Source: Chlamydiia bacterium | GTDB taxonomy: Bacteria; Chlamydiota; Chlamydiia; Chlamydiales; Rhabdochlamydiaceae | Assembly (NCBI GenBank): GCA_963804085.1 | Contig: CAWDOQ010000023.1 | Coordinates: 64,001-128,000, forward strand | Direction of reading: 5' to 3' | DNA length: 64,000 bases | Part shown: positions 133-59,874 of the stretch, one piece after another | How positions within the stretch are numbered: position 1 is the first letter of the stretch | How the letters are laid out: every line of letters begins with the position of its first letter | The notes under the pieces: generated by a model | Databases searched by the model: none | Told to the model about the DNA's origin: nothing | Seen by the model: only the letters and a program-made list of their open reading frames with translations | Translations under genes and position numbers: made by a program

Positions 133-209
133 CGCGCCCGCTTCCGCGCCCGCATGCGCGCCCGATCCGGATTAATTCGGGCGCGCATGCGGGCGCGGAA
201 GCGGGCGCG
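133..209. repeat. Family A palindrome (33-bp perfect arms, 11-nt loop TCCGGATTAAT)
   Basis: CGCGCCCGCTTCCGCGCCCGCATGCGCGCCCGA followed by its exact reverse complement. Confidence 0.95.
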
Positions 210-225
210 TATTATTCTGGCAAAC

Positions 226-2676
226 TTAAGCTTTCTCGGTTTCGAGGTTCTCAAGGCGCTGTACAGCAACCAGCTTGTCAGTTTCTGGCAGATTGACTAA
301 GCGAACACCTTGCGTCGAGCGTCCCATGACGCGAACATCTTTCATCGACATGCGCAGCGTCTGGCCCACGTTGGACATCATGACCACGCTATCATTATCT
401 GTAACAGAGATCGCACCGACAACAAGGCCGTTGCGGTCGCTTGTGATAATCGATCTTACGCCGACGCCGCCGCGATTTGTTTGGCGGAACTCATCGACTA
501 AAGAGCGTTTGCCATATCCGTTTTCACAGACGACAAGAATCGCCTCAGTGCCATTTACCACTTCGCATGAGACCACGCCATCGTTATCTTGGCGCAGTGT
601 CGCGCCTTTTACGCCGCGTGCAACACGACCGACCGGACGCACCTGTCCTTGATCGAAGCGAACTGCCATGCCATTCTTAGTGAAGAGCATGATCTGCTGT
701 CCCTCAGCTGTGAGACGCGCAGCTATCACCTCATCGCCCTCGTCAATGTTGATCGCATAGACCCCTTTGCGGCGTGGCGAATTGAAGGCAGCAAGCTCTG
801 TCTTCTTGACAACACCGTTGCGTGTCGCAAGGAGAATGTAACCTGGGTCTTCAAAGTTTCTAACGCGAAGAATGGCCGCGATCTTCTCAGTAGGCTGAAT
901 ATCTTCGAGCAGGTTGATGAGCGGCTTCCCTTTAGAGCGTCTTCCCGCTTCCGGGATCTGCCATGCTTTAAGCCAGTAGCATCTTCCGAAGCTTGTGAAG
1001 ATCATCAGATAATCGTGAGTCGAAGCGACATAGATATCTTTAAGTGTGTCTGCCTCTTTTTTCATCTCCATGCCGACCACACCTTGACCGCCCCTACGCT
1101 GTTCGCGGAAGGTGTCGACAGGCATGCGCTTGATGTAATCATCTTCCGAGATGGTGATGATCACGGGCTCATTGGGGATAAGATCTTCGATGTTGAATTC
1201 ACCCTCTGCTGCGATCATCTTGGTACGGCGCTCAGAAGGTTGCTGCTTTTTGACTTCGAGCAGTTCTTCTTTGATGATGCCGCGCACCAGCTCTTCGTTT
1301 GCGAGTACTGCGCGGAAGTGGGCGATCTTTGCGACCAGTTCTTTATATTCGTTTTCGAGTTTTTCGCGTTCTAAGCCTGTCAGCTGGTAGAGGCGCAACT
1401 CTAACACCGCGTGTGCTTGGCGGTCGCTTAAGTTGTATGTAGCCATAAGCTCAGCTTTGGCACCATCGCGGTTTGTGCTAGCACGGATGAGCTTTACAAC
1501 TGCATCGAGATGATCGAGCGCTTTTAAGTAACCTTCTAAAACGTGGGCGCGCGCTTCGGCTTTTGCAAGATCAAAGCGTGTACGTCTACGGATGACCTCG
1601 ATTCGGTGATCGATCCAAGCCGCAATCATGTGCTTGACGTTCATCGTGCGTGGCAGACCCTTGTCGAGCGCCAGCATGTTGCAGCCGAATGTCACTTGAA
1701 GATCGGTGTATCTATAGAGCTGGTTGATGGTGACATCGGGGATCTCGCCGCGTTTAAGCTCGAGGACGATGCGCATGCCATCTTTGTCCGACTCGTCGCG
1801 CATATCGGAAACGCCAGGCATCGTCTTCTCGTTTACAAGAAGTGCGATCTTCTGGATCAGATCAGATTTGCCTACGTTGTAAGGGATCTCATCGACAACA
1901 AGCCTTTGTCTCTCTCCATCCATCTCTTCGATGCGGATGACGCCGCGCAAGATAACCTTGCCGCGTCCTGTGTGGAACGCCTCTTTTACACCGCGCATAC
2001 CACAGATAATACCGCCCGTAGGAAAGTCGGGGCCAGGCATCACTTCCATAATCTCTTCGGTGGTCGTGGTCGGTTTCTCTAGCACGAGCATAGTTGCAGA
2101 GATGAGCTCGCCTAAGTTGTGCGGCGGGATGTTTGTCGCCATACCAACTGCAATACCTGAAGAGCCGTTAGCTAGAAGGTTGGGGAATTTTGCAGGGAAA
2201 ACAGTGGGTTCTGTCTTGGTCTCATCATAGTTGGGGATAAGATCCACTGTGTCTTTTTCTAAATCTTCCATGAGCGCCATCGAAGCATGCGTGAGACGTG
2301 CCTCTGTGTAACGCATCGCAGCCGGTGGGTCTCCATCGATAGAGCCGAAGTTTCCTTGGCCATCGACCAGTTTGTAACGCATTGCCCACTCTTGAGCCAT
2401 GCGCACAAGTGTTGGATAGATTACCGTCTCGCCGTGCGGATGGTAGTCACCGGAGGTGTCGCCCGAAATCTTGGCGCACTTTCTGTGTTTGGCACCGGGA
2501 GATAGATTGAGCATGCGCATCGCATAAAGAATACGTCTTTGAGAGGGCTTGAAACCATCACGCACATCGGGAAGAGCGCGCGAGATGATAACCGACATCG
2601 AATAGCGCAGGTAGCTCTCTTTAACCTCTTCTTCGACATTCCGCGGAAGTATCACTTCATCTTTCGTATAGGACAT
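226..2676 (-). CDS. gyrA: DNA gyrase subunit A
   Basis: RALPDVRDGFKP, YHPHG, catalytic AAMRYT, GyrA-box QRRGGQG. Confidence 0.98.
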   Translation of the reverse strand: MSYTKDEVILPRNVEEEVKESYLRYSMSVIISRALPDVRDGFKPSQRRILYAMRMLNLSPGAKHRKCAKISGDTSGDYHPHGETVIYPTLVRMAQEWAMRYKLVDGQGNFGSIDGDPPAAMRYTEARLTHASMALMEDLEKDTVDLIPNYDETKTEPTVFPAKFPNLLANGSSGIAVGMATNIPPHNLGELISATMLVLEKPTTTTEEIMEVMPGPDFPTGGIICGMRGVKEAFHTGRGKVILRGVIRIEEMDGERQRLVVDEIPYNVGKSDLIQKIALLVNEKTMPGVSDMRDESDKDGMRIVLELKRGEIPDVTINQLYRYTDLQVTFGCNMLALDKGLPRTMNVKHMIAAWIDHRIEVIRRRTRFDLAKAEARAHVLEGYLKALDHLDAVVKLIRASTNRDGAKAELMATYNLSDRQAHAVLELRLYQLTGLEREKLENEYKELVAKIAHFRAVLANEELVRGIIKEELLEVKKQQPSERRTKMIAAEGEFNIEDLIPNEPVIITISEDDYIKRMPVDTFREQRRGGQGVVGMEMKKEADTLKDIYVASTHDYLMIFTSFGRCYWLKAWQIPEAGRRSKGKPLINLLEDIQPTEKIAAILRVRNFEDPGYILLATRNGVVKKTELAAFNSPRRKGVYAINIDEGDEVIAARLTAEGQQIMLFTKNGMAVRFDQGQVRPVGRVARGVKGATLRQDNDGVVSCEVVNGTEAILVVCENGYGKRSLVDEFRQTNRGGVGVRSIITSDRNGLVVGAISVTDNDSVVMMSNVGQTLRMSMKDVRVMGRSTQGVRLVNLPETDKLVAVQRLENLETEKA

Positions 2677-2688
2677 AACAACACCGTT

Positions 2689-59195: not shown

Positions 59196-59674
59196 GTTTT
59201 AGGTTTGACGAGGGCGCAGCGAAAGTAAAGAAGCGCCCCGTTCATGAGAGCCGAGCCGATCGCCACATCGATCAAGCCTTTGAAATCTGCCGCAAGTGGA
59301 AGAAGCTTTAAGATAAAACCAAGCCCCATCATTCCGAGAATCAGAAAATAGTAGCTCTTCGCATAGATCTGTGAAAATTTGAGCGGAGAGGGCTGAGACA
59401 AGATGCGTGTGACTGTGCGCTGCACCGACTTTACCAGCACCCACCTTCCCTTGATAAATCCAAGTAGAAGCCCTGTTGCGATGATGAGAAGCGCTGCCTG
59501 CTCGCGGCCACCGGCTATTGAAGTAAGCGAAGGGATGATCCAAGCTTTTGCACTAAAATGATCAGGATGCGCCGCCTGAACGACCAGGTTCAAGCCCTTG
59601 GTCAGCAGCATGATCCCCACGCCCAGCCATACCGCCCCCGACAACAAAATACACATAGGATGAGTTAATTTCAT
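59192..59674 (-). CDS. Conserved 4-TM hypothetical membrane protein
   Basis: Four hydrophobic segments; IDVAIGSAL motif. Confidence 0.7.
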   Translation of the reverse strand: MKLTHPMCILLSGAVWLGVGIMLLTKGLNLVVQAAHPDHFSAKAWIIPSLTSIAGGREQAALLIIATGLLLGFIKGRWVLVKSVQRTVTRILSQPSPLKFSQIYAKSYYFLILGMMGLGFILKLLPLAADFKGLIDVAIGSALMNGALLYFRCALVKPKT

Positions 59675-59768
59675 AAGTACAACTTTGCACTAACTTCCTC
59701 TTATTCCCCAACTCTTTTTCTTAGACATGCCCGGGTGCGTGCCTGATCTTCCTCTTCCCTTCTTCAAT

Positions 59769-59874
59769 CGCGCCCGCTTCCGCGCCCGCGTGCGCGCCCG
59801 ATCTTTCTTTCTTTTGGAATTAATCCGGATCGGGCGCGCATGCGGGCGCGGAAGCGGGCGCGGAAGCGGGCGCG
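59769..59874. repeat. Family A palindrome with expanded loop and an extra 12-mer in the right arm
   Basis: GCGGGCGCGGAA duplicated; T-rich loop insert. Confidence 0.9.

What the first reader, a model, noticed from the sequence alone, without database searches (positions are those of the whole stretch)
133..59874. Dispersed CG-period-6 palindrome family (family A) with a conserved CCGA-loop-TCGG core
Seen: full copies at 133, 27777, 31828, 33255, 42452 and 59769, a solo arm at 10919, and variants at 52964 and 41803. Arms are ladders with a CG about every 6 nt (CGCGCC-CGCTTC-CGCGCC-CGCATG-CGCGCC-CGA; CGTGCC/GGCACG; ACGG-type). The filler bases change between subfamilies, while the spacing and the loop core (TTAATCCGGA, in either orientation) are largely kept. 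Copies gain whole 10- or 12-mers and all lie between genes. Inference: an actively spreading non-autonomous element recognised by CG periodicity plus the loop rather than by exact sequence. I know of no REP-like family described in Chlamydiae, but could not search.
Basis: partly seen in the sequence, partly recalled or inferred. Interest (0 to 1): 0.75.

Follow-up and report, generated by a model that had tools for sequence, protein, structure and literature searches.

The report
Gene-less hairpin copies of four-helix-bundle cassettes
The dispersed GC-rich hairpins are real and are miniature, gene-less copies of a small palindrome-armed cassette that carries a "23S rRNA intervening-sequence" type four-helix-bundle gene, which points to this long-puzzling gene family being part of a spreading element.

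Summary
Observation confirmed. All nine stated sites exist. The arm 15-mer occurs 14 times in the window against 0.13 expected.

Genome-wide (2.13 Mb) there are 251 hexamer-ladder arms, 158 of them exactly 5 units long, forming 96 head-to-head pairs. Of the 87 pairs with short gaps, 61 keep the loop core.

Three TIGR02436/PF05635 four-helix-bundle genes in this genome are each bracketed by these arms. One cassette's arms are identical to the major subfamily's consensus.

Across the phylum sample, 25 of 31 such genes sit between inverted arrays of 6- or 7-base repeats. The repeat unit differs by lineage, and each of three other genomes tested carries a dispersed family with its own cassette's unit.

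No target duplication was found. The single IS200-type transposase has different ends. The hairpins sit a median 18 nt after stop codons.

The enzyme that moves them is unknown. My searches found no description in print.

This scan has noted the same cassette design before on other DNA. What is new here is the roughly 100-copy gene-less family with three subfamilies.

The parts
133..209 (.). Full A-type hairpin: 5-unit arms CGCGCC-CGCTTC-CGCGCC-CGCATG-CGCGCC-CGA, loop TCCGGATTAAT. It lies 17 nt beyond the gyrA stop (ORF 226..2676, minus strand).
   Evidence: (I6, 100% complementary)
10919..10951 (-). Solo arm (G-rich sense on the + strand) preceded by the purine tract GAAGAGGAAGA. This is the inner junction of the long-loop and cassette forms. 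It lies between the chorismate-binding gene and the menD-like gene.
27777..27853 (.). Full A-type hairpin between convergent genes: 4 nt after the dnaA stop and 25 nt after the stop of the CesT-family gene.
   Evidence: (I7)
31818..31924 (.). A-type hairpin with the loop 10-mer duplicated; pairing extends into the flanks (43-nt arms). It follows the LRR gene 30612..31814.
   Evidence: (I2)
33246..33350 (.). The same hairpin variant after the paralogous LRR gene 32038..33231, copied along with the tandem gene duplication.
   Evidence: (I3)
41803..41866 (.). ACGG/CGTNAC-type ladder hairpin with a short left arm, loop ATTAAGAGAAGA and a long right arm. In a related strain a longer left arm replaces the 378 nt that lie upstream here.
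   Evidence: (joint 41424->41803)
42451..42529 (.). Full A-type hairpin between the divergent dcd-like and ruvB genes. In run X1 a contig of a roughly 96%-identical relative has 42 other letters in place of 42434-42529.
   Evidence: (I4)
52958..53022 (.). CGTGCC/TGTGCC-type hairpin, loop ACTAATCCGGA, with a longer right arm. It lies between the pseudouridine synthase and the M17 peptidase genes.
   Evidence: (I14)
59769..59874 (.). A-type hairpin with a 28-nt loop that keeps a pyrimidine tract plus the core. The right arm has 7 units (extra 12-mer). It lies between divergent ORFs.
   Evidence: (I5)

Best explanation
WHAT IT IS. Family A is the gene-less, miniature form of a palindrome-armed cassette. 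The full form is [about 5 tandem hexamers]-[short leader with ribosome-binding site]-[~115-aa four-helix-bundle gene, TIGR02436/PF05635, the 'S23p' type of 23S rRNA intervening sequences]-[purine tract]-[inverted hexamers]. Loss of the interior leaves a 33-bp stem closed by about 11 nt. These short forms have multiplied to roughly 100 copies in this genome.

SHOWN.
- The short forms and the cassettes share the same arms.
- Intermediate long-loop forms exist.
- Each genome's dispersed family uses its own cassette's repeat unit.
- The cassettes sit in unrelated gene contexts.
- There is no target duplication.
- The hairpins lie just after stop codons.

INFERRED.
- Any transcript that crosses a copy folds into a perfect ~33-bp RNA stem. 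Such a stem would probably be cut by RNase III or block exonucleases, as happens with rRNA intervening sequences. This would make insertion just after a stop codon tolerable.
- Copies are made in trans by machinery that reads the periodic arms. The Avd-like four-helix-bundle protein is the likeliest specificity factor. The catalytic enzyme is unknown and is not encoded in the cassette.
For: CASSETTES IN THIS GENOME. Three full PF05635/TIGR02436 genes (C10:17646, C7:6846 with its near-duplicate C19:343702, and C10:160339) are bracketed by ladder arms. The arms at C10:17.4 kb equal the A-type consensus.

SUBFAMILIES. Arm subfamilies A, B and C correspond to the three cassettes. Both arms belong to the same subfamily in 74 of 96 pairs.

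INTERMEDIATES. Long-loop forms keep the cassette's AAGAAAG...GAAGA tract next to the right arm.

OTHER GENOMES. In other genera, 25 of 31 PF05635 loci have bracketing inverted arrays (score 18 or more) built of 6- or 7-mers.

UNIT MATCHING. The CCGAGA ladder gives 61 hits in G256 only. The CGTAAC ladder gives 45 hits in G212 and 39 in G202 only. These are the units of those genomes' own cassettes, and the other genomes among the 5 tested gave 0 hits.

ASSOCIATION. Ladder and PF05635 co-occur: 16 genomes have both, 17 the gene only, 20 the ladder only, 247 neither (my tally).

CONTEXT. Flanking ORFs are not shared among 9 cassette loci. The protein tree does not follow host families.

LOOP ORIGIN. 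The 3' junction of G024's cassette (TCCGGCTAAC-CGGGC) and G024's short loops (CCGGATTAATT...) resemble this genome's loop core.

POSITION. Hairpins lie a median 18 nt from a facing stop codon against 81.5 nt from a facing start. In tandem gene contexts 30 of 36 lie nearer the stop, p = 7e-5.

STRUCTURE. The fold is -84 kcal/mol, z = -12. The protein model (pLDDT 95.6) matches 2GSC, 2RLD and the DGR protein Avd.
Against: - No movement was observed. The one differing site (42434-42529) is 'replaced by 42 letters' that I could not read, so it may be a shorter copy rather than an empty site.
- The loop core TCCGGATTAA is not present in any of this genome's own three cassettes. The short forms therefore descend from a cassette version no longer seen here, or the loop has another origin.
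- 20 of the 300 genomes scored in both searches have ladders without a PF05635 gene, among them G156 with 100 hits.
- In the non-A subfamilies the two arms agree in unit order no better than random partners: 37.4% against 32.4 +/- 3.1%.
- The direction of descent (cassette to hairpin, or gene inserted into pre-existing hairpins) is not settled.
- No catalytic gene was identified.
- The bracketing-repeat scores had no shuffle control; loci without arms scored 8-11.
Confidence: 0.68

Rival explanations
1. A REP/REPIN family mobilised by the genome's REP-associated tyrosine transposase (RAYT, IS200-like Y1/HUH enzyme), which nicks single-stranded hairpins and inserts without target duplication.
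For: - One Y1_Tnp gene exists (C17:57827-58168, 95 bits).
- The lack of target duplication fits HUH transposition.
- A half family-A element lies just downstream of that gene.
- 7 of the 11 relatives with 5 or more ladder hits have a Y1 gene, against 11 of 30 without (my tally).
Against: - The Y1 gene is flanked by its own ~100-nt inverted repeats of unrelated sequence, present at about 10 places.
- NCBIfam scores it as IS200-type (70.8 bits, cut-off 55) and below the RAYT model's cut-off (34.4 bits against 80).
- G013 (99% complete, 89 ladder hits, with a cassette) and G001 (98% complete) have no Y1 gene.
- Nine Y1-positive relatives have no ladder.
Confidence: 0.1
2. A classical MITE derived from a DDE transposon (IS630/Tc1-like with TA targets, TTAA-targeting, or the resident IS66) and moved by that transposase.
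For: - The elements are short, palindromic, intergenic and multi-copy.
- The flanks often end in TA or TTAA.
- An IS66 with an intact transposase is present.
Against: - There is no excess of direct flank repeats: 14 of 59 against 13.0 +/- 3.0.
- The IS66 ends (GTAAGCGTCAAATGAGG...) are unrelated to the arms. IS66 is inserted into the arms, with its own 8-bp duplication in one copy.
- I did not survey other DDE families genome-wide.
Confidence: 0.05
3. Host-serving RNA or DNA structures (3'-end stabilisers, RNase III sites, attenuators or protein-binding sites) kept by selection. Copy number would grow by recombination or gene conversion rather than transposition, and the four-helix-bundle genes would be later lodgers in some loops.
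For: - The hairpins hug stop codons: 57 of 66 lie within 45 nt.
- The stems are very stable.
- Arm variants co-vary within A-type pairs: unit 4 is concordant in 27 of 31 pairs.
- Ladder-only genomes exist.
- Other elements (IS66, a 270-380-nt palindrome) do lodge in these loops and arms.
Against: - 13 of the 64 hairpins between called ORFs lie between divergent genes.
- The 3' flanks are A/G-rich, not T-rich, so these are not canonical intrinsic terminators.
- Distribution among genera is patchy: 0 of 40 relatives have this loop form, and the ladder is present in 36 of 301 genomes.
- The unit matches the resident cassette in each genome tested.
- Near-identical copies still need a copying process.
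Confidence: 0.15

Closest known systems
ORF-bearing intervening sequences (IVS) of 23S rRNA (Coxiella burnetii S23p IVS; Leptospira). PMC4990558: abstract and passages read. Ralph & McClelland 1993 seen only as cited there; the paper itself is not held.
   Same: - Both carry a small PF05635/TIGR02436 gene between terminal inverted repeats that pair into a long stem (28 bp in Coxiella, about 33 bp here).
- ORF-less versions exist in both.
- Distribution is sporadic in both.
- A mobile origin has long been suspected but no transposase is known.
   Different: - The elements here are not in rRNA: the 23S gene of this genome has no IVS-sized insertion.
- The arms are tandem hexamers.
- The gene-less form is amplified to roughly 100 intergenic copies in three subfamilies.
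- RNase III cutting is inferred here, not shown.
REP/REPIN elements with RAYT (PMC3733652: abstract and passages read)
   Same: Both are short, intergenic, multi-copy palindromes, often just after genes, without target duplication, and with lineage-specific families.
   Different: - There is no GTAG or CGTC tag.
- The stems are 33 bp, against 8-15 bp.
- The arms are built of tandem repeats.
- The resident Y1 gene is flanked by other repeats.
- The associated gene is a four-helix-bundle protein, not a transposase.
MITEs of obligate intracellular and other bacteria (Rickettsia RPE, Neisseria Correia elements; recalled, no call)
   Same: Both are non-autonomous palindromic repeats that spread in compact genomes.
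   Different: RPEs often insert in frame inside genes, and Correia elements make TA duplications. Neither behaviour is seen here.
Avd, the accessory protein of diversity-generating retroelements (PMC10053308 passages; PDB 4DWL and 8UB7 titles)
   Same: The four-helix-bundle fold is the same (TM 0.79-0.84). Avd works as part of an RNA-protein complex. The crystal entries 2GSC and 2RLD each list five chains.
   Different: No reverse transcriptase (PF00078) was found in this 91%-complete genome. There is no template/variable repeat pair. Sequence identity to Avd is about 10%.

Membership tests
TIGR02436 / PF05635 four-helix-bundle ('23S rRNA IVS protein') - for the cargo gene | Score above the curated cut-offs of both models | tested here: met
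   TIGR02436 scores 77.5, 76.5 and 66.1 bits (cut-off 24). PF05635 scores 84.4, 82.5 and 69.2 bits (cut-off 33.8).
TIGR02436 / PF05635 four-helix-bundle | Four-helix-bundle fold like the solved members | tested here: met
   The model has pLDDT 95.6 and four helices. Foldseek matches are 2GSC (TM 0.90), 2RLD (0.83-0.86) and Avd 4DWL (0.79).
IVS-type palindrome-armed cassette | Gene bracketed by terminal inverted repeats able to form a long stem | tested here: met
   This holds for 3 of 3 full-length genes in this genome and for 25 of 31 loci overall.
IVS-type palindrome-armed cassette | Located in a 23S rRNA helix and excised by RNase III | tested here: not met
   The cassettes lie between protein genes. 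The 23S gene aligns without a large insertion. RNase III cutting is not testable here.
REP/REPIN-RAYT | The RAYT gene is flanked by the same repeats in inverted orientation | tested here: not met
   The flanks of the Y1 gene belong to a different ~100-nt repeat family.
REP/REPIN-RAYT | Conserved GTAG (or CGTC) tag at one end of a short stem | tested here: not met
   The arms start CG[CT]GCC after an A or T. No tag is visible in the flank profile.
DDE-type MITE | Target-site duplication flanking the terminal inverted repeats | tested here: not met
   14 of 59 copies have a direct repeat of 2 nt or more, against 13.0 +/- 3.0 with shuffled partners.
DDE-type MITE | Ends match a full-length IS in the same genome | tested here: inconclusive
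   The only IS examined (IS66) has unrelated ends. Other IS families were not surveyed.
Intrinsic terminator | GC-rich stem followed by a T run | tested here: not met
   The downstream flank is A/G-rich, mirroring a T/C-rich upstream flank. The scan tool cannot score 11-nt loops.
Any Rfam RNA family | Match at the gathering score | tested here: not met
   Only SRP RNA matched in the window.

The most novel reading that the evidence does not exclude
READING. The four-helix-bundle protein is a ring-shaped (pentamer-like), sequence-specific reader of the tandem 6-7-base units in its own arms, on RNA or single-stranded DNA. This recognition would direct the copying of both the cassette and its gene-less miniatures. 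This one genome would then hold three orthogonal protein-repeat pairs: the CGCGCC/CGCTTC, CGTGCC and TGTGCC/TCTGCC subfamilies. That would give the S23p/Avd-like family its first function outside retroelements and would explain rRNA intervening sequences as strays of the same element.

FOR. 158 of 251 arms have exactly 5 units. The solved relatives list five chains. The unit type tracks the protein clade.

AGAINST. Binding was not tested.
Probability: 0.25. Interest if true: 0.85.

Novelty: new variant of a known kind. Interest (0 to 1): 0.62.

Why it matters
The PF05635/TIGR02436 'intervening-sequence protein' has had no function since the early 1990s, and the origin of rRNA intervening sequences is unsettled.

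Here the same gene-plus-inverted-repeat module is found outside rRNA. It is linked to a family of about 100 gene-less hairpins, with three coexisting arm subfamilies that match three resident genes.

That makes the idea 'the protein reads its own repeats and the module is mobile' directly testable, by binding assays across the three pairs and by a marked-cassette mobility test.

It also documents a high-copy palindromic repeat family in an environmental member of a phylum usually described as repeat-poor. This bears on assembly breaks, on IS targeting, and possibly on mRNA 3'-end processing.

Tried and rejected
- **Target duplications (TA/TTAA).** No excess was found.
- **RAYT link.** Rejected as the main explanation.
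- **Reverse-transcriptase partner (DGR-like).** PF00078 was not found in this 91%-complete genome.
- **IVS in the genome's own 23S rRNA.** None of IVS size.
- **Hc1 (PF07432) as a phylum marker.** No hit, and the control rang in an unrelated genome, so the test is uninformative.
- **Exact scan of 185,579 species genomes for the 19-mer loop plus stem.** Only 4 single hits, in unrelated taxa, taken as chance.
- **Metagenome scans.** The 21-mer core gave 0 hits. A 32-mer of conserved flank, meant to fetch the related strain, also gave 0.
- **RNA evidence.** No RNA holder was listed, so nothing can be said on expression.
- **Read laying.**
  - No cover at 31909-33110 in run X1.
  - Contigs ended at 27773 and 31818, next to elements. 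I could not interpret these.
- **Strain-variant contigs (C1/C3, C7/C19, C9/C10).** No presence/absence difference of an element.
- **Backwards-read control of the pattern searches.** It is useless for hexamer ladders, because the reversed unit is a rotation of the unit. My own estimate of chance is about 1 arm per genome.
- **Terminator scan.** It cannot score 11-nt loops.
- **G-quadruplex idea for the GGGCAC arms.** Dropped, because other lineages use units without G runs.
- **Loop orientation.** No bias overall (32 against 29) and none relative to transcription (13 against 17).
- **Literature.** Searches for TIGR02436, PF05635, S23p, REP or MITE with the phylum name, and 'four helix bundle protein' with inverted repeats and mobile found no description of this element.
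Full report

Reading the stated places shows six full hairpins. Those at 133-209, 27777-27853 and 42451-42529 have 33-nt arms that are 100% complementary. Those at 31818-31924 and 33246-33350 have 93% complementary arms that run on into the flanks. The sixth is at 59769-59874.

Each arm is five hexamers plus CGA: CGCGCC CGCTTC CGCGCC CGCATG CGCGCC CGA. The loop is TCCGGATTAAT or its complement, which simply reflects the orientation of the whole palindrome.

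- The copies at 31860 and 33287 have the 10-mer TTAATCCGGA duplicated.
- The copy at 59769 has a 28-nt loop and seven units in its right arm.
- The solo arm (10919-10951), the CGTGCC variant (52958-53022) and the ACGG-type variant (41803-41866) are all as described.

The arm 15-mer with up to 2 mismatches occurs 14 times against 0.13 expected; 0 of 100 shuffles reach 14, and one hit at 17052 is probably chance. As RNA a copy folds at -84.1 kcal/mol, z = -12.1. No Rfam family matches.

**2. Extent in the genome**

The window is C23:64001-128000 of a 2.13-Mb, 24-contig assembly.

- The 10-nt loop core occurs 90 times at 86 sites, most of them between ladder arms.
- A regular-expression census found 251 arms of 3 or more units, 6,894 bp in all. 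158 arms have exactly five units.
- The arms form 96 head-to-head pairs, and 59 arms are unpaired. Many of the 'unpaired' arms have a short or degenerate partner.
- By unit type, 99 arms are A (CGCGCC/CGCWWS), 87 are B (CGTGCC), 38 are C (TGTGCC/TCTGCC) and 27 are D (CTTGCC/CCTGCC). Both arms share a subfamily in 74 of 96 pairs.
- Of the 87 pairs with a gap of 90 nt or less, 28 have the exact canonical interior and 61 hold the core.
- 40 of 83 five-unit A arms equal the consensus. The rest differ by one or two transitions at CG positions.

The tool's backwards-read control is meaningless for a hexamer ladder, because the reversed unit is a rotation of the unit. My estimate of chance is about one arm per genome.

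**3. Position**

With a crude ORF caller (1,951 ORFs, 88% coding), 64 of 72 hairpins lie between ORFs, 7 lie in over-extended ORF ends and 1 lies at a contig end. Of the 64, 36 lie between tandem genes, 15 between convergent genes and 13 between divergent genes, roughly in proportion to intergenic length.

They hug 3' ends:

| Measure | Facing stop codon | Facing start codon |
|---|---|---|
| Median distance | 18 nt | 81.5 nt |
| Within 45 nt | 57 of 66 | 16 of 62 |

In tandem gene contexts 30 of 36 lie nearer the stop, binomial p = 7e-5.

- The flanks are T/C-rich upstream and A/G-rich downstream for about 10-15 nt, and the last base before the arm is A or T.
- There is no excess of direct flank repeats: 14 of 59 have 2 nt or more, against 13.0 +/- 3.0 with shuffled partners.
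- Pairing runs on past the ladder a little further than with shuffled partners: 1.37 nt against 0.76 +/- 0.16.
- The downstream flank is not T-rich, so these are not canonical terminators.

**4. What they belong to**

A self-comparison drew attention to C7:6785-7202, where two arms enclose a ~120-aa ORF.

A genome search with PF05635 found six matches. Four are full-length: C10:17646, C7:6846 with its 98% duplicate C19:343702, and C10:160339. Each of these is bracketed by ladder arms.

- The proteins pass TIGR02436 (66-78 bits, cut-off 24) and PF05635 (69-84 bits, cut-off 33.8).
- The structure model is a confident four-helix bundle (pLDDT 95.6). It matches 2GSC (TM 0.90), 2RLD ('S23 ribosomal protein family') and the retroelement protein Avd.
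- The C10:17.4 kb cassette has exactly the A-type consensus arms, a pyrimidine tract after the left arm and AAAGAAAG...GAAGA before the right arm.
- The 'long-loop' hairpins (43-81 nt) keep that purine tract, and so does the solo arm in the window. These are intermediates between cassette and mini-hairpin.
- The other two cassettes carry B-type and C-type arms, matching the other subfamilies.

**5. Relatives**

The 19-mer loop plus stem occurs 69 times here and in 0 of 40 relatives, all of other genera. It also occurs in no other species genome beyond 4 single chance hits, and in no JGI metagenome contig.

The ladder itself is wider but patchy.

- With up to 2 mismatches the 18-mer gives 246 hits here, 210 in G024, 186 in G005, 89 in G013, and none in 26 of 41 genomes.
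- With up to 1 mismatch it is present in 36 of 301 genomes of the phylum sample. It is absent from all 30 genomes of the family that holds the 1.0-1.2-Mb genus.
- PF05635 genes occur in 33 of 300 genomes. My tally of the two tables gives 16 with both, 17 with the gene only, 20 with the ladder only and 247 with neither. Kin are not independent.

In 31 PF05635 loci my script found bracketing inverted arrays in 25 (score 18 or more). Two loci were weak and four had none; no shuffle control was run, and the arm-less loci scored 8-11.

The arms are tandem 6- or 7-mers whose unit differs by lineage:

| Unit type | Genomes |
|---|---|
| CGTGCC | many |
| CCGAGA | G256 |
| CGTAAC | G212, G202 |
| GATCTT | G290 |
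| TGCCCY | G280, G237 |
| GTTCGGA (7-mer) | G107 |
| AATTCAG (7-mer) | G272 |
| CAATTCA (7-mer) | G185 |

Most arms are about 33 nt, or about five units, by my reading of the printed arms.

Each genome's dispersed family uses its own cassette's unit. CCGAGA gives 61 hits in G256 and 0 in four others. CGTAAC gives 45 hits in G212 and 39 in G202, and 0 in three others. Many of these occur as close plus/minus pairs. G024 has about 20 short hairpins, some with loops CCGGATTAATT...TTCGGG, and its cassette ends TCCGGCTAAC-CGGGC. The loop core here therefore probably descends from a cassette's 3' junction.

No flanking ORF is shared among 9 cassette loci. In the protein tree the hexamer-armed proteins form one clade (99/96), within which host families are mixed. 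The three paralogs of this genome fall apart, and the two CGTAAC cassettes from different families pair at 100/99.

**6. Who moves it?**

- The single Y1 (IS200-like) gene is flanked by an unrelated ~100-nt inverted repeat present at about 10 places. It scores below NCBI's RAYT cut-off.
- G013 and G001 have ladders and cassettes but no Y1 gene.
- No reverse transcriptase was found.
- The 23S rRNA gene has no IVS-sized insertion.
- The cassette has no room for its own promoter: only 17 nt separate the arm from the ATG in C7. Its mRNA must therefore include both arms and fold like an rRNA intervening sequence. This step is inference.
- RNase III cutting of a 28-bp stem is documented for the Coxiella IVS (PMC4990558, passages). 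For the elements here it is inferred.

The catalytic activity remains unknown.

**7. Recency**

Contigs of soil-metagenome run X1 carry a relative about 91-96% identical. One contig bridges 42433 to 42530 with 42 other letters in place of 96, so the copy at 42451-42529 is absent or much shorter there. Another contig lacks 378 nt at 41425-41802 and has a longer ACGG-type left arm instead. The letters of the 42-base replacement were not shown, so an empty site is not proven.

**8. Comparison with what is known, and novelty**

The closest described thing is the ORF-bearing rRNA intervening sequence. REP/REPIN elements and MITEs resemble it in habit but fail their defining tests (see the membership table).

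My literature searches found no description of such cassettes outside rRNA or of their gene-less families. Subscription journals are mostly not covered.

After I had reached this reading, a look-up showed that this scan has noted the same cassette design on other DNA six times, including the ideas of gene-less copies and of branch-specific repeat motifs. Those are unchecked AI notes that agree with the results here and are not counted as evidence.

What this window adds:
- a roughly 100-copy family with three subfamilies matched to three resident cassettes;
- the stop-codon proximity;
- the lack of target duplication;
- IS66 targeting of the arms.

**9. Verdict**

The best explanation is gene-less derivatives of four-helix-bundle cassettes (confidence 0.68), with the mobilising enzyme unknown. 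I rate it a new variant of a known kind, with interest 0.62.

Noticed in passing
G000 C17:155799-157814 and C17:177832-179847 (L014, L015): Two inverted copies of a 2016-bp IS66 (TnpB-like plus a 500-aa transposase) both sit inside family-A arms. One has the 8-bp duplication CGCACGCG. The other lies between a left and a right arm where the loop should be. The arms make up under 0.5% of the genome, so this looks like target preference.
   Followed up: partly
G000 C17:57626-58466 (L009 1300-2140): The single IS200-like Y1 transposase gene (150 aa) is flanked by ~100-nt inverted repeats of a separate family. That family has about 10 copies, at C2 164.2 kb, C16 88.8-90.2 kb and C19 164.3-166.5 kb. 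A tRNA gene-like stretch and half a family-A element lie just downstream.
   Followed up: partly
G000 C4:46918-47404 (L065 1440-1926): A GxxExxY (TIGR04256, 151.6 bits) gene with one internal TAA stop is bracketed by 53-nt, 96%-complementary inverted repeats that contain CACAGAG-type repeats. This is a second kind of palindrome-armed mini-cassette in the same genome. Similar sequence is nested in a family-A pair at C19:235122-235686.
   Followed up: partly
window 41425-41802: A ~270-nt long palindrome (arms around 41480-41530 and 41700-41750, with GACGC-type repeats) lies in a 378-nt stretch that the X1 relative lacks. Similar palindromes sit inside family-A loops at C8:30679-31009 and C16:21960-22406.
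   Followed up: partly
window 20849-20955 and 44819-44916: These are hairpins whose arms carry CGGAC repeats spaced about 9-10 nt apart. Similar CGGAC arrays flank a divergent PF05635-like gene at C19:346295-346501 (L022), so this may be a second cassette-and-miniature pair.
   Followed up: no
window 48873-49007: A palindrome with 62-nt arms (74% complementary, 11-nt spacer) begins 8 nt after the SRP RNA gene (48766-48865).
   Followed up: no
G000 C23:39717-40797 (upstream of the window): Four tandem copies of a ~330-nt unit each contain a 110-nt hairpin of another family (arms ATCCTGTTTATCCTGCCGGCGAAGCCGA). Single copies lie at C17:111076 and C22:76707.
   Followed up: no
G000 C23:44573-44640: A hybrid hairpin has a CGTGCC-type left arm and an ACGGTA-type right arm around the usual loop, which suggests exchange between subfamilies at the loop.
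   Followed up: no
G000 contigs C1/C3, C7/C19, C9/C10: Stretches of 6-7 kb are present twice at 95-98% identity. This probably reflects a second strain in the assembly (contamination figure 4.97%) or recent duplication.
   Followed up: partly
window 10984-12652: The menD-like thiamine-pyrophosphate enzyme is split over two ORFs (10984..11781 and 11789..12652), just downstream of the solo arm. This may be a frameshift, a stop, or an assembly error.
   Followed up: no
window 30612-33350: Two tandem LRR-protein paralogs (about 77% identical DNA) each end with the same duplicated-loop hairpin. The X1 relative shows no cover over the second paralog (31909-33110).
   Followed up: partly
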